Shown in pieces: positions 5,056 to 30,348 of a stretch of DNA of 32,000 nucleotides. Numbering within the stretch: position 1 is the stretch's first letter; each line of letters begins with the position of its first letter. Source of the stretch: Thermofilum pendens Hrk 5 (GTDB lineage Archaea > Thermoproteota > Thermoprotei > Thermofilales > Thermofilaceae); assembly GCF_000015225.1 (NCBI RefSeq), contig NC_008698.1:570001-602000 (forward strand), read 5' to 3'. Under the pieces are notes generated by a model, which saw only the letters and a program-made list of their open reading frames with translations, made no database searches and was not told where the DNA came from. A program made the position numbers and the translations under genes.

Positions 5056-5844
5056 CTAAATGAGTGCTTCGTCGAGTGCGCGTGCGCATTGACACTTTCT
5101 TTCCTCAGGTATGCTCGGTATAAGGTCTGCTAGGAGCCTCTTCACCTTTTCTGTGTTCTCCGCCATAACCCTTGCTACTTCGTGAGCTGTTACTGGTTTC
5201 TCGGCCCAGACGTCGTAGTCAGTTACCATTGCGATGTTTAGGAAGCACATCCTGGCTTCTCTCGCAAGGTTAACCTCGGGTACGAGCGTCATGCCTATGA
5301 TGTCGGCGCCGAACTGGCGCCATAGCCTGGATTCCGCCCTGGTGGAGAACCTCGGCCCCTCAATGCAGATGTAGGTGCCTTTCTCGTGCATAGTTATGCC
5401 CAGCTTTCTAGCGCTCCTTATACAGAGCTCCCTAAGCTCGGGGCAGAAGGGGTCTGCCATCGATACATGTGCCACGACCGGGCCATCGTAGAACGTATAC
5501 ACCCTACCCTTAGTCATGTCGATAAACTGGTCCGTGCATACAAAGTCTCCGGGCTTGTAATCCTCGCGTAGGCTTCCCACCGCCGAGACGGAGATAAGTC
5601 TCTCTACTCCAAGCTCCTTGAGAGCGTATATGTTGGCGCGGTAGTTGACCTTGTGTGGTGGTATCTCGTGTCTCTTACCGTGCCTGGGTATGAATGCAAC
5701 CTTTCTCCCAGCGATTTCCCCTATAACCACGTGAGAGGAGGGCGGGCCATACGGTGTGTAGATTTTCTCCTCCTTGGGGTTAGTCAGGAAGTCCGGAGAA
5801 TAGAGGCCGCTTCCTCCTATGATGCCAATCTTTACTTTCTCCAT
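5056..5844 (-). CDS. mtnP: 5'-methylthioadenosine phosphorylase (PNP family 2)
   Basis: 262 aa. [12 protein letters not shown]-terminus, [21 protein letters not shown]; typical MTAP architecture. Confidence 0.9.
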
Positions 5845-5901
5845 ACGTTTATTACGTGCGCGCCCGGGATAATAATCTTTCCGGGGATCTTCCCCGAGAT
5901 C

Positions 5902-6531
5902 CTACATAAGCCACCTAAACGAGAAGTATTGAATCTTTCCGTCTACCGGGTCTCTATAAGCGAGTATGAAGTGTTTCCTCACGGAATGCGAAAGTCTCCC
6001 AGCCCTTATGATCTGTATAGGGTCAAGCTTGTCGTTATACTTCAAGACATCCACCAAGAAGATCGAGTGGTCAATGCCGGGACCGAACTGGTACACGGCA
6101 AACGTGGAACCGAATTTCATTCCCGACTTCACTACGTAGCCTCTTCCCCTCAGGTCCTTGTAAACAGCATAAGCGTCGTAGAAGTTTTCATAGATTCTGG
6201 ATGCAAGCTCGAAAAGCTCCGAGGGAGAAACAGGGCTCCCGTCCTCTCTTTTAAGGTCTAGGCAGCCCTGTTCCAGAAGGTACATTGCGTCGAAAAGAGA
6301 CAGTTCTAGCTCTTTGCGTACGTCTGGGAGCTTCGGCTTGGGCACCGTGAAGAAGCGTCCGTAGAAACCTCCTTTGAAGTACAACTGGTTTCCTTGAAGA
6401 GGATCCAGTACTACCACCCTCGTTCCGAGGAGGACTGCCTCTATCTTCGTGCACTCCGAGGGAGGCTTTCCATGCATACAGTGTCCCGTGTGCATGTCGG
6501 GGTCTGTGTCTCTGAAATACTTTGCGATCAA
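5902..6531 (-). CDS. endA: tRNA-splicing (intron) endonuclease, catalytic-type subunit
   Basis: C-terminal catalytic domain pattern YAVYKDLRGRGYVVKSGMKFGSTFAVY..H..SVRK, and an N-terminal ..LYFKGGFYGR segment. The start is uncertain; internal Mets (e.g. 6477) are equally possible. Confidence 0.8.
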   Translation of the reverse strand: MIAKYFRDTDPDMHTGHCMHGKPPSECTKIEAVLLGTRVVVLDPLQGNQLYFKGGFYGRFFTVPKPKLPDVRKELELSLFDAMYLLEQGCLDLKREDGSPVSPSELFELASRIYENFYDAYAVYKDLRGRGYVVKSGMKFGSTFAVYQFGPGIDHSIFLVDVLKYNDKLDPIQIIRAGRLSHSVRKHFILAYRDPVDGKIQYFSFRWLM

Positions 6532-15967: not shown

Positions 15968-16617
15968 CGCCCTCGCTCAATGGCGACTCGGTGGCGCTGA
16001 CGACCGCCTTCCTGGGAGACGACGGGCTCAAGTACTTTCTAAGGCTTAGATGGCTCTACTTCAGGGCTGGACAGGAGCACATCTACTTGCCGACGGAGAG
16101 CCCTGTTTTCAATGCCCGCTTAGCGGTCGAGCTTGCCTCTGAGTACGTTAAGTTCATCTCGTTGGCGATGAAGTGTCCAAAGATTAAACACTTCCTCTTC
16201 GTCGGCTTCGGAGCACCAGGCAAGAGGAGTAAGAAAAACGGGCAGAAGAACAACCCGTTCTACGCCGAGGTGGCAGGGGCGCAACTACACCTTGTTTACA
16301 TTTCTACGAAGAACCACGTCTACGCCCGTATTGTGGTCAACGACACGCCTCAAGGCTGGTACGAGAAGGCAATCGAGGAGGGCTGGGTTGTGCGTACAAT
16401 TAGTATGGGTGACAGGGAGTACTACCAGGTTACACACGCCTCTTTGATGGAGCACGCCCGTTACGACGCGGCTCTGCGTGAAACATTGATAGCCTTCGCG
16501 AAGGCGAAAGCCGAGCAGTACCCCAAGGCGCAGAGCCTCGTAGAACGCCTCGAAAAGCTGGGAAACCAAGACAGCTAAAGCGGAAAACCGCCAAGAAAAA
16601 GGCGCCCCGCCCCCCGC
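15968..16617 (+). repeat. 5'-truncated copy (copy A) of the multicopy unit, homologous to 27517-28164
   Basis: Collinear nucleotide and protein homology to the 3' third of the full copy, including identical blocks 16033-16063 = 27582-27612 (31 nt) and 16513-16556 = 28062-28105 (44 nt), plus the related C-rich tail 16576-16617. Confidence 0.85.
15991..16578 (+). CDS. stand-alone paralog of the C-terminal domain of the 483-aa multicopy-family protein (possibly a gene fragment)
   Basis: The intact 195-aa ORF aligns end to end with residues ~290-483 of ORF 26673..28124 (e.g. YFLRLRWLYF, NARLAVE.ASEYV, FYAEVAGA.LHLVYISTKNHVYARI, REYYQVTH, KAEQYPKAQSLVERLEKLG). GTG start follows a CTTTATTCC box (15949-15957). 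Confidence 0.6.
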   Translation: MALTTAFLGDDGLKYFLRLRWLYFRAGQEHIYLPTESPVFNARLAVELASEYVKFISLAMKCPKIKHFLFVGFGAPGKRSKKNGQKNNPFYAEVAGAQLHLVYISTKNHVYARIVVNDTPQGWYEKAIEEGWVVRTISMGDREYYQVTHASLMEHARYDAALRETLIAFAKAKAEQYPKAQSLVERLEKLGNQDS

Positions 16618-16658: not shown

Positions 16659-16979
16659 ATGGGCAGAAGGAGGAAAAAGCGTGCTCGTAGAGTGGTCGTA
16701 GTTAAACGCAAGCTACCTACGGTCTTCCAATGCCCGAGATGTGGAGCCTCTGCCGTTGGTGTCTCAGTTAAGAAGGGGGGACGGGAAAACTACGTAGTTG
16801 TATCCTGCTCTAATTGCGGGTTGAAGGCTAGGTACGATTATGTTGAGTACCTAGAGCCGGTAGACTATTTTAGCCGTTTCCTGGACGACTATGAGGCTGG
16901 AAAAATTCCTTTAGAGGGATCCGTGAGTGGGGGATCTGATGAGGGGGCGAGTGAAGAACTACATACTGGAGAAGATTAG
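16659..16979 (+). CDS. elf1: transcription elongation factor Elf1 homolog (zinc ribbon)
   Basis: Basic N-terminus MGRRRKKRARR, then FQCPRCG..SCSNCG and the EPVDYFSRFLD motif as in eukaryotic Elf1. ATG lies about 30 nt after GGTTTATAAC. The acidic tail overlaps the next gene. Confidence 0.8.
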   Translation: MGRRRKKRARRVVVVKRKLPTVFQCPRCGASAVGVSVKKGGRENYVVVSCSNCGLKARYDYVEYLEPVDYFSRFLDDYEAGKIPLEGSVSGGSDEGASEELHTGED

Positions 16980-18080: not shown

Positions 18081-18476
18081 GGTCGCGCGTGAAGTTGCAT
18101 TGTCTCAACACGCACAGAAAAAGCGCGTGGAAAAGGAGAAGGAAAAAGAGTGTTTTAGGTTTACTCTTTTGCTAGCTTTTCGATGGCTTTGATCGTTGCC
18201 TGGGCTACCCCGAGGACGGGGTAGTAGACGGTGACCTTGCCTACGCGCGTGTGCGCCGCAAGAGCAGAGACGAAGACCGCGAAGAGCTCCCAGGACTCGC
18301 TGTTCGAGCATGTGAGCGAGGACCCAGAACTCTGGGAGGCTCTCTATGCGTTCGCTAAGGCGGAGGTTAAGCCGGTTGCGGAGAAGCTATTCGAGGGATT
18401 GCTGAAAATACGCCTGCTGGGGGCACTAGAAAAGAGGTAAGACCAACAGAGAAAGACACCCCCGGTCCCCTCCTCC
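18081..18476 (+). repeat. internally deleted, degenerate copy (copy B) of the multicopy unit retaining left-end-like and right-end sequences
   Basis: Left part: GGTCGCGCGTGAAG..AGCGCGTGGAAAAGGAGAAGGAAAAAGAGTGTTTTAGG resembles 25501-25560. Right part encodes SLFEHVSEDPELWEALYAFAKAEVKPVAEKLFEGLLK, compare SLFEHARSDTELRATLLAFAKHKAEQYPKAQSLVERLEK. Tail TAAGACCAACAGAGAAAGACACCCCCGGTCCCCTCCTCC lies at 18438-18476. Confidence 0.6.
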
Positions 18477-20728: not shown

Positions 20729-21088
20729 CTACTTGAAGTTTGTGTAGATGAATAGCAACAGGAGCAGCGATACCGCCACTACAGCTACACCGCTCACGAG
20801 CGTGAAGTAAAACGCGGAGCGCTGAGGGCTATACTTAGTAGAGTCGTATATGATCAGTAACCCTACGATCGCCATCGCGTATAGGAAGAGGACTATGATC
20901 ATCTCGGAGACTGTCTGGCCGCCGCCGGACGGGTAAATCAGTTGCACTCCGAGCGAGAAGGGCGGGCGCTCCGAGAGGACGTAGAAAACCCCAGAAGCTA
21001 TCAAGAGTATCACTGCTAGCAGTGCCGCGGCGAGAACCCTGAAATCTATACCACGCTTCGATACTCTTAGAGCCACGAGTTTCTCCAT
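20729..21088 (-). CDS. small integral membrane protein (3-4 predicted TM segments)
   Basis: Hydrophobic stretches AAALLAVILLIASGVFYVL, MIIVLFLYAMAIVGLLIIY and FYFTLVSGVAVVAVSLLLLLFIY. Its stop lies 1 nt from the ATG of the ATPase gene. The TATA-like box is only ~10 nt from ATG 21088, so GTG 21076 may be the real start. Confidence 0.5.
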   Translation of the reverse strand: MEKLVALRVSKRGIDFRVLAAALLAVILLIASGVFYVLSERPPFSLGVQLIYPSGGGQTVSEMIIVLFLYAMAIVGLLIIYDSTKYSPQRSAFYFTLVSGVAVVAVSLLLLLFIYTNFK

Positions 21089-21120: not shown

Positions 21121-21167
21121 GGAGGAGAGGGCCGGGGCGCCTACTCCCTGCCGGTCTTACTCTTTAG
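21121..21167 (-). repeat. solo 3'-tail repeat (copy C) of the multicopy unit, inverted orientation
   Basis: The reverse complement reads CTAAAGAGTAAGACCGGCAGGGAGTAGGCGCCCCGGCCCTCTCCTCC. Its first 23 nt are identical to 28121-28143, and the remainder matches the C-rich tail. Confidence 0.85.
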
Positions 21168-21248
21168 TTGTTTCGCCCCCGCGCGCAGGTGCACGCAAAG
21201 CTTATGCTTGTGTCTTTTGACCATGTAATGGGGGTTGTGTGCGTGTAC

Positions 21249-21428: not shown

Positions 21429-21558
21429 CCACGGGCGGATGGGAGAAGTAGAGACCCCCTTTAACAGGTTCACTCGCCAAACGCGCGCGGCGCGCGAAAG
21501 AAAGAGATATATTTGGCGTGGTATAGCGGTTTTTACAGCGAATATGCGGGTGTAGGGC

Positions 21559-25407: not shown

Positions 25408-25557
25408 GCATGCGAGAGACAAGCTTCGAGAGAACCTTGGCAGCCTTGTACCTGTTTAGCCTGGGCGCTATATCTCTTTGAAGCCTAAAATAAGGATCTT
25501 GATCGCGCGCGGTAGCGCGTGTTTACAAACCAGGGAAAAAGGAGAAAAAGGAGTTTT

Positions 25558-25788
25558 TTACGCTAGCCCTAGCTCTCTCAGCTCCTCAACGCCCTCCTCA
25601 AGCTCGCGCTCCAGCTCTTCGTCTTCCTCGACTCGCGGGGTCGCGCTTCCCACGGAGGTTAAAAACTCTTCGATTGCGTCCAACGCCTCTACTAGGCGCG
25701 CCTCGTACAGCCCGTCGCCCTTAAGAGTGCTCGCCAAAAGCCGCGAAAGCGCGCCTATCGTTCGCACGGTAACTCTCGGGTCGCTCAT
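25558..25788 (-). CDS. small acidic helical protein, unknown function (part of the multicopy unit)
   Basis: 76-aa ORF (MSDPRVTVRTIGALSRLL...EEDEELERELEEGVEELRELGLA). SD-like GAGGTAATGAGG lies upstream. A T/C-rich terminator-like tract after the stop is also partly retained at 18128-18160. Confidence 0.35.
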   Translation of the reverse strand: MSDPRVTVRTIGALSRLLASTLKGDGLYEARLVEALDAIEEFLTSVGSATPRVEEDEELERELEEGVEELRELGLA

Positions 25789-25896
25789 GCTCGGTCAACC
25801 CTCATTACCTCTTTCAACGCGGAAAAAACGGGAGAAAGCTCCCACGTTTACAAACGCAGGCAATAAATCCCAAAATCCACTATTAACATAGCAATC

Positions 25897-26672
25897 GGGC
25901 TCGCGGCCGAAAAGTGAAGCCGCGTCTACACCCCGGGAGGCGACACAGGCAAAGCCCCCGGGAGAGGCGCTCAACAGGTGAACCCCGCGGCCCAAAAATG
26001 AGCAATGACCCCAGACAGCCCGGCCGCGGGAGGACGGGGGAGGAGGGGGCCGAGGCGCAAGCAAAGACTAGGCCTGGGGGAGAAACCCTGCAATCCCCTG
26101 CCGCTAAAATTGAATTTTTTTCCCGCGTGTCTAACCCAACCCTCCCATCATTGGGGGCCCTCCCCGACAGGGAGGGGTTCAATGAGCCCCGCGCGCGGGG
26201 AGGCCCGGCGCGGGGCGAGGGAGGCGTAGCCCGCGGGGAGCCCCGGGGTTACGCCTCTCCGGGGCCCAGTGAGCGCCCCGGGGTGGGGAGGCCCTCCCGG
26301 GCGCGAGGGGAGCGCTTGGCCGCGGGGAGGCCCGGGCCAGGCGCTCTAGACACGCGGGGGCGGCGGGGGAGGCGGGGCTCTGGGGCCCCAGCCCCGGGCT
26401 GGGGCGTCTCTCCCCGGTTGGGGAGAGACCGGCCTAGGGGCCGATTCGTGAAGCCCGACACGATGAGCCGAAAGGTGACGGTCGCCCCTAGTAAACGACG
26501 CCGGCCTTCCCGGGGGGCCGGGCAAAGGCGGGCGAGGCCTTGGCCCCAGCGGGCCCGCCCGAGAAAGCAATCACTTCGAAGCACTCACCGCTCACGCCTC
26601 CCTCCCGCCACGCTGACCCCTGATAGCGCGCCCTCGCGGGGCGCCCCACCCGCCACGTGGAGGGTGGGTGAT
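25897..26672 (+). ncRNA. candidate large structured RNA and/or structured 5' leader (unclassified extreme-GC island)
   Basis: 149/180 G+C in 26221-26400 by my count. G>C skew on the plus strand. All frames are open but low-complexity. There are many perfect stems and an internal T7 run at 26115-26121. The strand is inferred only from G-skew, T-run and the upstream AT-rich box. Confidence 0.35.
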
Positions 26673-28124
26673 ATGAGTGAGGCCTTGATGAGGGGAAATG
26701 GAGCCGTGGGGGAGGGGGTCGAGAAGACTGTTAGGGAGGAGGTTTGGAGGCGTGCGGCTCTAAGCTTGTATGCCACCAGGACAGAGGATAAGAGGAGGTC
26801 CAGGGGTAAGAAGAAGAAGGGCGAGATACACTACCGCGGCCTGCACGATGCTGTGACCGAGGTCGACTGGGACTTTACCAGGTTCGCGGCACACGCGCTG
26901 ACCGTCGTGCCGGACGACGTCTACCCGAGGTTTTACAGGTTCATCGACATCGACGCGAGGAAGTACCTCTTGCTGAACAGCGACGAGAGGCCACGCGAAG
27001 GAAGCGCTGTGACGGAGCTCAAAGGAAGGTTGCAAGCAATAGTCGACGCCGGCGCCGACGGTCTTAGAGCTGAGAAGCATGGCAGAGTCTGGCACGTATA
27101 CATACCTAGAGAGAACTGGTATGTCGTCGTGAGCAAGCCCACTAACGGCTGGTCCGTGCACGTACCGCTGAAGGGTTACTGGGTTGAATCAGAGTTCCCG
27201 GAGGTTCTCGTGAGGACACCACCAGACGTGCTTAGAAGCCTGCAGAAAGGGTGGGTCTTAACGGATGTGACACCCCCTCGTGGACGCTTCAGCGACGTGA
27301 GTTTCGCCACGACGCAACCGTGGCAACTCCCCAGTACGCTCGCAAGCTTTCCGAGCGACGATATCAAGCTCGGCGTCACGGCGGGCATACTCGGCAGTAC
27401 CAGGCTGAGCATCCAGTGGCACGCGCGTGTCTACGGCTACGAGGAGGCGCTCTCCTGGGCTTCAAGGCTTATCGGCGAAGTTAAACGTGCAGAGTTCCGC
27501 AGGTTGGTCGAGGAGTGCAAAGCGCTCAACGGCGACCCAGTGGCTCTTTTCACTGGCTTCTTGGGGGACGGCGGGCTCGAATACTTTCTAAGGCTTAGAT
27601 GGCTCTACTTCAAGGTTGGACACGAGCTTCTCTACTTGCCGGCGGAGAGCGCCATTGTCAATGCTCGCTTGGCCGTGGAGAGGGCAAGCGAGTACGTGCG
27701 CTTTGTCTCGCTGGTAACTAAGTGTCCGAAGGTCAAACACTTCCTATACGTCGGCTACGGGATGCTGCAGAAGAGGGGCAGGAAAAACGGACAGAGAAAT
27801 AACACGTTCTATGCCGAGGTAGCGGGAGCTAGGCTACACCTAGTCTACATCTCTACGAAGAACCACGTCTACGCCCGTATCGCGGTCGAAGCTGTGCCTC
27901 AAGGCTGGGTGGAGGAGGCGCGCGCTCAAGGCTGGGACGTCCGGGTGGTTAACATGGGAGGCAGGGAGTACTACCAGGTGACTCACAGTTCTCTCTTTGA
28001 ACACGCGCGTAGCGACACAGAGCTACGCGCAACACTCCTCGCCTTCGCGAAGCACAAGGCTGAGCAGTACCCCAAGGCGCAGAGCCTCGTAGAACGCCTC
28101 GAAAAACTGGGGACAGAAGACTAA
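26673..28124 (+). CDS. 483-aa protein of a multicopy family, function unknown
   Basis: Normal composition resumes at ATG 26673, preceded by SD-like GGAGGGTGGGTGAT. The C-terminal ~195 aa are paralogous to ORF 15991..16578 and partly to 18290-18440. The track ORF start at 25914 merely runs through the GC island. Confidence 0.65.
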   Translation: MSEALMRGNGAVGEGVEKTVREEVWRRAALSLYATRTEDKRRSRGKKKKGEIHYRGLHDAVTEVDWDFTRFAAHALTVVPDDVYPRFYRFIDIDARKYLLLNSDERPREGSAVTELKGRLQAIVDAGADGLRAEKHGRVWHVYIPRENWYVVVSKPTNGWSVHVPLKGYWVESEFPEVLVRTPPDVLRSLQKGWVLTDVTPPRGRFSDVSFATTQPWQLPSTLASFPSDDIKLGVTAGILGSTRLSIQWHARVYGYEEALSWASRLIGEVKRAEFRRLVEECKALNGDPVALFTGFLGDGGLEYFLRLRWLYFKVGHELLYLPAESAIVNARLAVERASEYVRFVSLVTKCPKVKHFLYVGYGMLQKRGRKNGQRNNTFYAEVAGARLHLVYISTKNHVYARIAVEAVPQGWVEEARAQGWDVRVVNMGGREYYQVTHSSLFEHARSDTELRATLLAFAKHKAEQYPKAQSLVERLEKLGTED

Positions 28125-28164
28125 AGAGTAAGACCGGCAGGGAAAGGCGCCCGGCCCCCTCCCC
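28122..28164 (+). repeat. C-rich 3'-tail repeat of the full-length unit
   Basis: TAAAGAGTAAGACCGGCAGGGAAAGGCGCCCGGCCCCCTCCCC, starting at the ORF stop codon. Related copies lie at 16576-16617, 18438-18476 and 21121-21167 (reverse complement). Confidence 0.85.
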
Positions 28165-28175
28165 TTAGCTTGTCC

Positions 28176-28192
28176 TGAGTAAGGTTTATCTA
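28176..28192 (+). promoter_or_regulatory. duplicate copy of the EF-1alpha BRE/TATA box (function unknown)
   Basis: TGAGTAAGGTTTATCTA is identical over 17 nt to 28298-28314. The following ~80 nt loosely resemble the EF-1alpha 5' leader. Confidence 0.45.
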
Positions 28193-28297
28193 GCGCGCGT
28201 TGCGCGGCTCGCCGTAACTTACCTTGTCGTGAATTCCGCTATGGTAATGTATTGGTGCGCGGCTCCGCAGGCTCGCAGTGCCTAGTGCTACTATAGG

Positions 28298-28314
28298 TGA
28301 GTAAGGTTTATCTA
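28298..28314 (+). promoter_or_regulatory. EF-1alpha promoter (BRE/TATA)
   Basis: TGAGTAAGGTTTATCTA lies about 45 nt upstream of ATG 28356, with an SD-like GAAGGTG in the leader. Confidence 0.6.
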
Positions 28315-30251: not shown

Positions 30252-30348
30252 GGGCCCGTAGCGCAGTCAGGAAGCGCGGCGGCCACGCCTGCAGGGCGCC
30301 GCAGTCCTAAGCCGCAGGTCCCGGGTTCGATTCCCGGCGGGCCCGCCA
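30252..30348 (+). tRNA. tRNA-Arg (anticodon CCU) with a 20-nt intron at non-canonical position 32/33 and encoded CCA
   Basis: Acceptor GGGCCCG/CGGGCCC, D arm GCGC-AGTCAGGAA-GCGC, anticodon stem GCGGC/GCCGC, T arm CCGGG-TTCGATT-CCCGG, discriminator G and CCA. Removing 30285-30304 gives the loop C-U-CCU-A-A. The intron is flanked by a bulge-helix-bulge: GCGG / CCA / CGCC-TGCAG-GGCG / CCGC / AGT. Confidence 0.85.

What the first reader, a model, noticed from the sequence alone, without database searches (positions are those of the whole stretch)
25501..28164. Multicopy composite unit (small divergent ORF + GC island + 483-aa ORF + C-rich tail) with three decayed relatives in the same 32 kb
The 3' third of ORF 26673..28124 and its tail recur at 15968-16617. 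Both ends appear to recur at 18081-18476, with the interior missing. The tail alone recurs inverted at 21121-21167. One full copy, one 5'-truncated copy, one internally deleted copy and one solo end is the decay spectrum of a mobile or integrative element. However, I recognise no transposase, integrase, reverse transcriptase or Cas1 motif in the 483-aa protein, no clear terminal inverted repeats and no target-site duplication. From memory only, the region ..LRSLQKGWVLTD....TTQPWQL.. is reminiscent of multicopy PaREP2-type ORFs of Thermoproteales; I cannot verify this without a profile search. The association with a large GC-rich RNA-like island may be new.
Basis: partly seen in the sequence, partly recalled or inferred. 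Interest (0 to 1): 0.8.

Follow-up and report, generated by a model that had tools for sequence, protein, structure and literature searches.

The report
Structured-RNA plus LAGLIDADG-like gene element
The region is one copy of an undescribed multicopy element of Thermofilum-type archaea, made of a large conserved folded RNA joined to a gene for a distant relative of homing endonucleases, and it most resembles a mobile archaeal intron living outside any known host gene.

Summary
The window is Thermofilum pendens Hrk5. The 483-aa ORF is Tpen_0646, wrongly annotated as 708 aa. It has at least 13 full-length paralogues in this genome plus decayed copies.

Pfam, NCBIfam and PDB sequence searches give no significant match, including to PaREP families. 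A good AlphaFold model and two invariant Asp-bearing motifs about 101 residues apart point to a divergent double-motif LAGLIDADG fold.

The GC island is non-coding. It is more conserved than synonymous sites and strongly folded. It is also conserved as an upstream GC island in many of the 80 loci examined, out of at least 497 metagenomic relatives found. A covariance model built only from those relatives finds the T. pendens island.

The 3' end of the unit pairs with the 5' RNA module. In relatives this helix has bulge-helix-bulge-like geometry. In T. pendens only the closing helix is seen.

Units sit directly upstream of promoters: tRNA genes and CRISPR leaders in relatives, EF-1α here.

Best reading: a selfish, intron-like homing-endonuclease element. 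Mobility, RNA excision and nuclease activity are inferred, not shown.

The parts
25504..25511 (.). Left-flank GCGCGCG motif. Homology with the second full copy (L001) starts just inside it, at about 25551.
25558..25788 (-). Divergent 76-aa acidic helical ORF. Only its C-terminal ~53 aa are conserved (79%) in copy L001. It is absent from the metagenomic relatives. Role unknown.
   Evidence: no Pfam or NCBIfam hit
25845..25867 (+). GTTTACAAAC motif (also at 25521-25530; repeated four times as GTTTGTAAAC in L001), followed by the TATA-like AATAAAT. Putative operator and promoter of the RNA.
   Evidence: Read from the sequence. Function is inferred.
25974..26076 (+). 5' RNA module. It holds a hairpin flanked by GGUGAAC and GGAGGA with an AUGAGCAAUGACC loop (K-turn-like). 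It also holds the strand that pairs with the unit's 3' tail: 26042-26052, 26054-26058 and, further on, 26096-26103.
   Evidence: CM R1, built only from metagenomic relatives, hits here at 23.6 bits, E 8e-5, and hits L001 at E 2e-6. Duplex shown.
26115..26121 (+). Conserved U7 run, present at the same place in all clades. It could be a terminator of a short RNA or part of an internal promoter.
   Evidence: function not tested
26122..26358 (+). Multi-hairpin module closed by the 12-bp helix CCCGCGUGUCUA (26122-26133) / UAGACACGCGGG (26347-26358). It contains a 76-nt tandemly duplicated hairpin unit, of which L001 has only one.
   Evidence: The equivalent closing helix in relatives has a different sequence.
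26359..26627 (+). Further GC-rich hairpins, including the near-invariant stretch 26322-26500 and the K-turn-like CGUGAAGCC..GAUGAGCCGAAAGGUGACGG (26447-26481).
26628..26675 (+). Start module: conserved hairpin GCGCCCU-CGC-GGGGCGC (26628-26644), a second hairpin (26646-26668), a GGUGA Shine-Dalgarno-like element and the AUG at 26673.
   Evidence: The same hairpin sequence lies upstream of the ORF in about 21 distinct relatives. Pair counts in relatives.
26673..28124 (+). 483-aa ORF (Tpen_0646 core). Motif A is LQKGWVLTD (res 190-198) and motif B is LFTGFLGDG (res 292-300). A separate C-terminal alpha/beta domain spans res 380-480.
28125..28164 (+). C-rich tail. It pairs with the 5' module: 28135-28142 with 26096-26103, 28147-28151 with 26054-26058, and 28152-28162 with 26042-26052.
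28193..28199 (.). Right-flank GCGCGCG, immediately after the TATA-like GGTTTATCTA. This is the promoter region that follows the unit.
15974..16614 (+). 5'-truncated copy: the last 195 codons (ORF 15991-16578, = P0023) plus the tail. It begins 4 nt after a GCGCGCG. A TATA-like GGGTTTATAA follows the tail, and the next gene starts at 16659.
   Evidence: dN/dS 0.23
18231..18476 (+). Remnant of a second-subfamily copy: the last ~50 codons plus a tail-like end.
21124..21168 (-). Solo tail in inverted orientation. It is preceded (in element orientation) by GCGCGCG and followed by the TATA-like AATTTATAC and the start of the (-) gene ending at 21088.

Best explanation
The unit at about 25551-28164 is one member of an undescribed family of multicopy genetic elements. 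The family occurs in Thermofilaceae (shown for one relative host) and in other uncultured archaea from metagenomes whose hosts were not identified.

Each element has three parts:
- A GC-rich, modular, highly structured RNA. It is about 780 nt in T. pendens and 400-700 nt in relatives.
- A 420-490-aa protein whose core looks like a monomeric double-motif LAGLIDADG (homing-endonuclease-type) fold. Its start codon and first codons are embedded in the RNA structure.
- A 3' end that base-pairs with the 5' RNA module, so that the whole ~2-kb transcript is closed by a long-range helix.

In most relatives that helix has bulge-helix-bulge-like geometry, which is the substrate of the archaeal splicing endonuclease. 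The RNA-plus-ORF segment would then be excised, and probably circularised, as happens for archaeal rRNA introns that carry LAGLIDADG genes.

I infer that the element is selfish. The endonuclease-like protein would promote its spread or maintenance at sites immediately upstream of promoters. The structured RNA would control expression, or remove the insert from read-through transcripts. Copies that lose activity decay into the truncated copy, 3' remnant and solo tail seen in this window.

Shown: copy number, protein family and conserved residues, fold resemblance, RNA conservation and pairing, promoter-proximal placement.

Inferred: nuclease activity, homing, RNA excision.
For: Identity and copy number:
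- The ORF is Tpen_0646. There are 13 close paralogues and more divergent T. pendens paralogues P0014, P0015 and P0022.
- A second full copy (L001) has the same architecture.

Protein:
- It is under purifying selection: dN/dS 0.25, dS 0.59.
- AlphaFold gives pLDDT 84.8.
- Foldseek PDB and BFVD top lists are dominated by LAGLIDADG enzymes. I-SceI gives prob 0.85-0.90; a BFVD I-SceI-like protein gives prob 1.00, E 2e-3.
- hhalign places LFTGFLGDGGL on LLGLIIGDGGL of I-DmoI.
- In 40 sequences down to 19% identity, G193, W194, D198, T213, Q218, D299 and G300 are invariant. The two Asp lie 101 residues apart.

RNA island:
- Indels of 1, 2, 4, 7 and 88 nt show it is not coding.
- It is 85% identical between copies, against 71% at third codon positions.
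- Folding z-score is -7.3.
- Many of the 80 metagenomic loci examined, out of at least 497 confirmed as relatives, show an upstream GC island. In the clearest cases GC is 0.62-0.80 against 0.37-0.50 for neighbouring DNA.
- The module architecture is shared.
- CM R1, built from relatives only, hits the window at E 8e-5 and L001 at E 2e-6.
- Start module: 91.5% of cells paired, 14 pairs with double changes, 0 of 500 shuffles reach this.

5'-3' helix:
- In relatives the duplex energy is -50 to -71 kcal/mol, against about -32 to -50 for shuffled tails.
- 92.5% of cells pair, against 32-47% with slid partners.
- Compensatory changes are seen between L017 and L013. The outer helix extends into flank-specific, covarying bases.
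- In L013 the geometry is a 4-bp helix with a clean 3-nt bulge on one strand and a 3-nt AGA loop on the other. The middle G of that loop may pair with an opposing C.

Placement:
- A tRNA gene starts 37-59 nt after the ORF end in 11 loci, with further cases among truncated copies. A BRE/TATA-like AAAAATTTAAA sits at the junction.
- T. pendens tails are followed by TATA-like boxes.
Against: - No sequence profile places the protein in LAGLIDADG families. The best Pfam result is E 0.083, in 1 of 10 members. hhalign gives E 0.03-0.07 over 16-28 columns only. All Foldseek E-values are above 1e-3, with TM 0.3-0.4.
- In T. pendens the 5'-3' duplex is only marginally better than shuffled controls: -54.7 against -46.6 +/- 3.8 for the window, and not significant for L001.
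- The T. pendens duplex does not form a canonical BHB. There is a 40-nt insertion on one strand, and the AAA loop lies on the wrong side of the central helix.
- A conserved U7 run lies between the 5' module and the ORF. It could terminate transcription, in which case the pairing would have to act in trans.
- No empty site, target-site duplication or near-identical copies were seen. Paralogues are 65-80% identical, as expected for old copies or for a host gene family.
- No host 'exon' function is known.
- The truncated copy still shows dN/dS 0.23.
Confidence: 0.55

Rival explanations
1. It is an ordinary, non-mobile host paralogous gene family. An example would be an RNA- or DNA-binding protein derived from a LAGLIDADG ancestor. 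Its long structured 5' leader would be a cis-regulatory element, such as an autoregulatory protein-binding site or an RNA thermometer. Copy differences would come from duplication and pseudogenisation.
For: - Paralogues are old: 65-80% aa identity, dS 0.59.
- They are under purifying selection, dN/dS 0.25.
- The start codon and Shine-Dalgarno-like element are embedded in conserved structure.
- No TIR or TSD was found.
- No viral or plasmid relatives were found.
Against: - Truncated, internally lost and solo-tail copies occur within 12 kb.
- Closely related RNA+ORF units lie next to unrelated flanks, such as different tRNA genes and CRISPR leaders.
- Genes often lie at metagenomic contig ends.
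- A 5'-3' closing helix that extends into the flanks is not expected of a simple 5' UTR.
Confidence: 0.22
2. These are two genes, not one RNA. The 5' module would be a separate ~150-230-nt small RNA ending at the U-run. It would act in trans on the 3' end of the ORF mRNA as an antisense regulator, or form a trans BHB as in split tRNAs. This would be analogous to type I toxin-antitoxin control of a harmful nuclease.
For: - A conserved U7 run follows the 5' module in all clades.
- TATA-like boxes lie about 25-30 nt before the module in relatives.
- The module has 25-30 nt of complementarity to the ORF 3' end.
- The 5' module is duplicated in tandem in some loci.
Against: - No transcript data are available.
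- The module is always linked in cis and co-oriented with the ORF.
- No separate promoter for the ORF was identified.
Confidence: 0.12
3. It is a PaREP2-type repeat protein family of Thermoproteales, or a classical transposon or integrative element with an unrecognised transposase.
For: Multicopy and lineage-restricted, with decayed copies.
Against: - No PaREP or transposase/integrase family matched in Pfam or NCBIfam at permissive thresholds.
- No TIR or TSD was found.
- Fold hits are to LAGLIDADG enzymes, not to DDE, tyrosine or serine recombinases.
Confidence: 0.04
4. The GC island is coding: an N-terminal extension of a 708-aa protein, as annotated for Tpen_0646.
For: The frame is open from 25914. 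The GenBank annotation is 708 aa.
Against: - Indels of 1, 2, 4, 7 and 88 nt between copies break the frame.
- The translation is low-complexity and Arg/Gly/Pro-rich.
- Other paralogues start at the internal Met, which is preceded by GGUGA.
- The second assembly aa.
Confidence: 0.02

Closest known systems
Archaeal bulge-helix-bulge introns of rRNA genes that carry LAGLIDADG homing-endonuclease ORFs (for example the I-DmoI intron of Desulfurococcus and the 16S introns of Thermoproteales)
   Same: - A GC-rich stable RNA joined to a LAGLIDADG-type ORF in crenarchaeal hyperthermophiles.
- Unit ends brought together by a helix that, in relatives, has BHB-like geometry.
- HEGs are known to occur in archaeal BHB introns (PMC6125680).
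- BHB sites are known outside tRNA and rRNA, in one mRNA and one 5' UTR (PMC7714728).
   Different: - It is not inside rRNA, tRNA or any recognised gene. It sits intergenic, directly upstream of promoters.
- The protein is more than twice as long, at 420-490 aa. This rests on the 194-aa I-DmoI sequence used and on my own knowledge of other intron enzymes.
- The protein is not recognised by the Pfam LAGLIDADG models.
- The RNA part is much larger, at 400-780 nt upstream of the ORF.
- The T. pendens copies lack a canonical BHB.
Free-standing homing endonuclease genes (as in phage intergenic regions)
   Same: Intergenic, multicopy, diverged paralogues that decay. No TIR or TSD.
   Different: Those genes are not accompanied by a large conserved structured RNA or a 5'-3' closing helix. 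Here the host is a cellular archaeal chromosome, and no viral relatives were found.
Group I introns with LAGLIDADG endonuclease or maturase ORFs
   Same: A large structured RNA physically coupled to a LAGLIDADG-type protein. The ORF is closed by long-range pairing.
   Different: There was no match to the Rfam group I model at E <= 10 in the unit or at E <= 1 in nine relatives. No host gene is interrupted.
Nuclease-plus-RNA modules of mobile elements (IscB/TnpB with omega RNA; HEARO)
   Same: A conserved structured non-coding RNA always adjacent to a nuclease-like ORF in a multicopy element.
   Different: - The nuclease fold is different: LAGLIDADG-like, not RuvC/HNH.
- The RNA lies upstream of the ORF and overlaps its start.
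- Nothing here indicates a guide segment.
PaREP2 families of Pyrobaculum
   Same: Lineage-specific multicopy ORFs of Thermoproteales.
   Different: No profile match at any threshold tried.

Membership tests
LAGLIDADG homing endonucleases | Two LAGLIDADG helices about 90-120 residues apart, each ending in a conserved acidic residue | tested here: met
   Motif A is LQxGWxLxD (res 190-198) and motif B is LxxF/YLGDG (res 292-300). D198 and D299 are invariant in 40 sequences. Motif B aligns with motif 1 of I-DmoI. Motif A was assigned by inspection only.
LAGLIDADG homing endonucleases | Significant profile match to Pfam LAGLIDADG_1/2/3 or to solved LAGLIDADG proteins | tested here: not met
   Pfam gave nothing for the full proteins. 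LAGLIDADG_3 reached E 0.083 in 1 of 10 C-terminal halves. PDB profile searches found no LAGLIDADG chain. hhalign gave E 0.03-0.07.
LAGLIDADG homing endonucleases | Alpha-beta-beta-alpha-beta-beta-alpha fold duplicated around paired helices | tested here: inconclusive
LAGLIDADG homing endonucleases | Site-specific DNA cleavage and homing into empty alleles | not testable with these tools
   The only second T. pendens assembly is identical. Scans of the genome collection found nothing.
Archaeal BHB introns / BHB-processed RNAs | Two 3-nt bulges on opposite strands separated by a 4-bp helix at the boundaries | tested here: inconclusive
   Relatives have the central helix CCGC/GCGG, an AGA bulge, and a 2-4-nt A-rich bulge with 0-2 nt opposite. 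L013 is the closest to canonical: a clean 3-nt bulge on one strand, with the other 3-nt loop facing a single C. T. pendens is not met: a closing helix is present, but the bulge geometry is wrong. The strand geometry of the canonical motif rests on my own knowledge.
Archaeal BHB introns / BHB-processed RNAs | Interrupts a host gene whose function is restored by exon ligation; the excised RNA is circular | not testable with these tools
   No host gene is recognisable around the unit. No transcript data are available.
PaREP2 | Match to Pfam PaREP family profiles | tested here: not met
Group I intron | Match to Rfam RF00028 | tested here: not met
IS elements / integrative elements | Transposase or integrase domain, terminal inverted repeats, target-site duplication | tested here: not met
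   The flanking similarity reduces to a TATA-plus-GCGCGCG pattern that is common in the window.

The most novel reading that the evidence does not exclude
The family is a new class of archaeal mobile RNA-protein element. A ~2-kb RNA, made of a large ribozyme-sized structured domain plus the mRNA of a divergent LAGLIDADG protein, would be cut out at a BHB-like helix formed by its own ends and then circularised. This could happen in cis or between two transcripts. The DNA copy would home to the upstream edge of strong promoters (tRNA genes, CRISPR leaders, translation-factor genes). In effect it would be an 'intron without a host gene'. The protein might also bind its own RNA, as a maturase does.
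Probability: 0.3. Interest if true: 0.88.

Novelty: new variant of a known kind. Interest (0 to 1): 0.8.

Why it matters
- Neither the protein nor the RNA is in Pfam, NCBIfam, PDB (by sequence) or Rfam. Full-text searches for the locus tags, and for Thermofilum pendens together with LAGLIDADG, found nothing.
- The module is nevertheless abundant. The metagenome scan confirmed at least 497 loci, and T. pendens alone has at least 13 full copies.
- If the BHB-like closure is processed, it would extend archaeal intron and circular-RNA biology beyond rRNA, tRNA and the few known mRNA cases.
- It could also bear on how introns and homing-endonuclease genes move in Thermoproteales, where tRNA introns are known to transpose by an unknown route (my own knowledge).
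- The stereotyped position, a few nucleotides upstream of BRE/TATA boxes of tRNA genes, would be a new kind of target choice in archaea.
- Practical points: Tpen_0646 is mis-annotated, and a 400-780-nt conserved structured RNA awaits description.

Tried and rejected
- Pfam and NCBIfam on the 483-aa, 76-aa and 195-aa products and on distant homologues: nothing.
- PDB sequence and profile searches: nothing meaningful. The designer-PPR hits are sums of one weak 24-residue stretch.
- AlphaFold with close paralogues only: pLDDT 43, unusable.
- Rfam at gathering and at E-value thresholds: only tRNAs and a CRISPR repeat.
- Genome-collection scans, one protein and one island motif: no hit, so the T. 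pendens genome is apparently not held there.
- First metagenome scan with T. pendens-type patterns: nothing.
- Most exact-protein look-ups of paralogues failed, so only two full T. pendens copies could be compared.
- Plasmid, phage and viral collections: no relatives.
- The T. pendens genome paper is not held.
- The third metagenomic clade (L053-L087): its 3' ends were not defined well enough, and duplex tests were not significant.
- Considered and dropped: SRP or RNase P RNA (no Rfam hit), group II intron (no RT, no domain V), H/ACA guide cluster (not tested beyond inspection), and coding of the island (frame-breaking indels).
Full report
**Source and observation**

The 483-aa ORF (26673-28124) is identical to the C-terminal 483 residues of Tpen_0646 of Thermofilum pendens Hrk5, which is annotated there as 708 aa.

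- The window has GC of about 0.52, and GC rises to 0.73 at 26001-26500.
- blastn confirms 27523-28159 against 15974-16614: 75.7% over 643 nt.
- It also confirms tail 28120-28162 against 21168-21124, inverted, at 91%.
- At 18231-18476 there is a genuine 3' remnant of a second C-terminal subfamily (P0021, profile E 1.8e-4).
- No TIR or TSD was found.

**Copy number and relatives**

- The word-indexed protein search finds 13 T. pendens proteins of 65-80% identity.
- The exhaustive profile search adds divergent T. pendens paralogues (P0014, P0015, P0022) and metagenomic proteins.
- The second T. pendens assembly (CM138769.1) is 100% identical to the window over 13,645 nt, so it gives no polymorphism data.
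- It did supply a second full copy, L001. That copy has the same order of parts: small divergent ORF, GTTTGTAAAC repeats, GC island, ORF, tail.
Of these, 497 were confirmed as relatives and 80 were kept.
- The host of one 170-kb contig carrying two copies is a Thermofilaceae member. Its S4e is 74% identical to T. pendens and 65% to Infirmifilum.
- No phage, plasmid or IMG/VR relatives were found.

**The protein**

- Pfam, NCBIfam and PDB sequence searches are negative, including for PaREP families.
- It is a real, constrained protein: dN/dS 0.25 between two copies.
- With distant homologues added to the alignment, AlphaFold gives pLDDT 84.8 (43 without them).
- Foldseek finds nothing at E < 1e-3. 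Even so, the top of both the PDB and BFVD lists is largely LAGLIDADG enzymes: I-SceI, I-CreI derivatives, I-OnuI, I-WcaI, I-Tsp061I, and a BFVD I-SceI-like protein at prob 1.00.
- hhalign's only alignment to I-DmoI places LFTGFLGDGGL on LLGLIIGDGGL and continues into the first hairpin. I verified the I-DmoI sequence.
- In 40 sequences down to 19% identity the invariant residues are G193, W194, D198, T213, Q218, D299 and G300.
- So there are two G..D motifs about 101 residues apart, each at the end of a predicted helix. This is the layout of monomeric double-motif enzymes.

I therefore read the core as LAGLIDADG-like, with an extra N-terminal helical region and a C-terminal alpha/beta domain. 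Family membership is not established by any significant score.

**The island is a structured RNA**

- Between the two T. pendens copies it has frame-breaking indels. It is 85% identical, against 71% at third codon positions of the ORF, and about 180 nt are nearly invariant.
- It folds far better than shuffles, z = -7.3 on the + strand.
- In many of the 80 metagenomic loci, the 400-700 nt upstream of the ORF are much more GC-rich than the ORF or the neighbouring DNA. An example is 0.69/0.59 against 0.34-0.46.
- The islands are homologous among loci.

The shared architecture is:
- a hairpin with covarying stems, flanked by (G/U)GAUGAAC and GGAGG, with an AUGACGAUGA-type loop;
- a conserved GGGGUGGG..CCGC..GAGUAGCC segment;
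- a U-run;
- a multi-hairpin module closed by a long helix, whose sequence differs between clades (T. pendens 26122-26133 / 26347-26358);
- a start module with the near-invariant hairpin GCGCCCU-NNN-RGGGCGC, a second hairpin, GGUGA and AUG.

In one clade a ~35-45-bp helix pairs the region upstream of the start with the first ~15 codons. There, 91.5% of cells are paired, 14 pairs have changes on both sides, and 0 of 500 shuffles reach this.

A covariance model built from 11 metagenomic 5' modules hits the T. pendens island at 25974-26076 (E 8e-5) and L001 (E 2e-6).

Rfam has no family for any part of it.

**Closure of the unit**

- In the metagenomic clade the last ~30 nt of the ORF (GGCUACUCGAGCUCGCGGAAAACCCACCCC, encoding ..LLELAENPP) are almost invariant at the DNA level.
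- They are complementary to the conserved segment of the 5' module. Duplex energies are -50 to -71 kcal/mol, against about -32 to -50 for shuffled tails.
- 92.5% of cells are paired, against 32-47% when partners are slid.
- L013 and L010 carry compensatory changes (GAGUAGCC/GGCUACUC to GAGCAGCU/AGCUGCUC; GGGGUGGG/CCCACCCC to GGGGCGGG/CCCGCCCC).
- The outer helix continues into locus-specific flanks that covary with the 5' side.
- The geometry is outer helix, 4-bp CCGC/GCGG, a 3-nt AGA bulge on one strand, a 2-4-nt A-rich bulge on the other, then an inner helix of 13-14 bp. That is BHB-like, and closest to canonical in L013.
- In T. pendens the homologous 5' segment pairs with the tail: 26042-26052/28152-28162, 26054-26058/28147-28151 and 26096-26103/28135-28142. 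The energy margin is small, and the bulge layout is not that of a BHB.

**Placement**

- In 11 relatives a tRNA gene starts 37-59 nt after the conserved ORF end, on the same strand. Further truncated copies sit about 150 nt before tRNA-Glu. The anticodons vary.
- The junction reads ...CCCACCCC(U)-AAAAAUUUAAA, that is, BRE/TATA-like. Several ORFs have no stop before the tRNA.
- Higher-GC loci, which may be Thermofilum-like, are followed by TTTAGCGCGCG-type sequences.
- In T. pendens each tail is followed by a TATA-like box and a co-oriented gene: EF-1α, the ORF at 16659, and the (-) gene at 21088.
- One group of relatives abuts CRISPR leaders.
- Closely related units have unrelated flanks, and genes often lie at contig ends.

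**Interpretation**

The combination is closest to archaeal introns that carry LAGLIDADG genes. HEGs are known in archaeal BHB introns (PMC6125680). BHB processing also occurs in rRNA precursors, one mRNA and one 5' UTR (PMC7714728).

It differs in four ways: no host gene, a much larger RNA, a longer and unrecognised protein, and promoter-proximal sites.

I commit to a selfish, intron-like homing-endonuclease element whose RNA is processed or regulatory, at confidence 0.55. The main rivals are:
- a non-mobile host gene family with a structured leader (0.22);
- a two-transcript antisense or trans-BHB arrangement (0.12).

Mobility, cleavage and circularisation are inferences.

Noticed in passing
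window, 20 sites (e.g. 12444, 14469, 15964, 18048, 21180, 21482-21496, 25504, 28193, 31494): GCGCGCG occurs 20 times against 5.9 expected (0 of 100 shuffles reach this). It lies mostly in intergenic or promoter-proximal positions, often just after a TATA-like box. It also marks the start of the truncated copy, the solo tail and both flanks of the full unit. It may be a Thermofilum promoter-proximal element or a recombination hotspot.
   Followed up: partly
window 28176-28192 and 28298-28314: The 17-nt promoter-like TGAGTAAGGTTTATCTA occurs twice, 122 nt apart, between the unit's tail and the EF-1α start (28356). The two copies bracket a segment of unknown function.
   Followed up: no
window 26416-26419 vs L001 ~5716: The loop of hairpin UCUCUCCCC-GGUU-GGGGAGAGA is exactly inverted (AACC) in the other copy. 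This suggests flipping of a DNA palindrome.
   Followed up: no
window 25914-28124: GenBank annotates Tpen_0646 as 708 aa by reading through the non-coding GC island. The second assembly aa.
   Followed up: yes
L017, L021, L024, L025, L029, L032, L035, L048 (and L015 7520-8655): CRISPR arrays lie next to the 5' side of the unit, separated by an AT-rich leader-like stretch. The repeat is CTTTCAATTCTTTC.GAGTTGCATC, whose reverse complement ends in ATTGAAAG. At least two different arrays are involved.
   Followed up: partly
L010, L015, L027, L040 and others: The ORF has no stop codon before the downstream tRNA gene, and the reading frame runs into the tRNA.
   Followed up: partly
L017 5293-6292 vs L021/L024: Orthologous loci differ by a ~1-kb insertion placed exactly at the unit's 3' boundary. 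It carries a (-) strand ORF of 303 aa at 5309-6220.
   Followed up: no
L014, L018, L033, L040: The 5' RNA module is present twice in tandem upstream of one ORF (two R1 hits each).
   Followed up: no
window 30252-30348: tRNA-Ala(CGC) with an intron of about 26 nt, 2 kb downstream of the unit.
   Followed up: no
window 15991-16578: The 5'-truncated copy is still an intact 195-aa ORF (annotated, P0023) with dN/dS 0.23 against the full copy. It may be recently truncated or still functional.
   Followed up: partly
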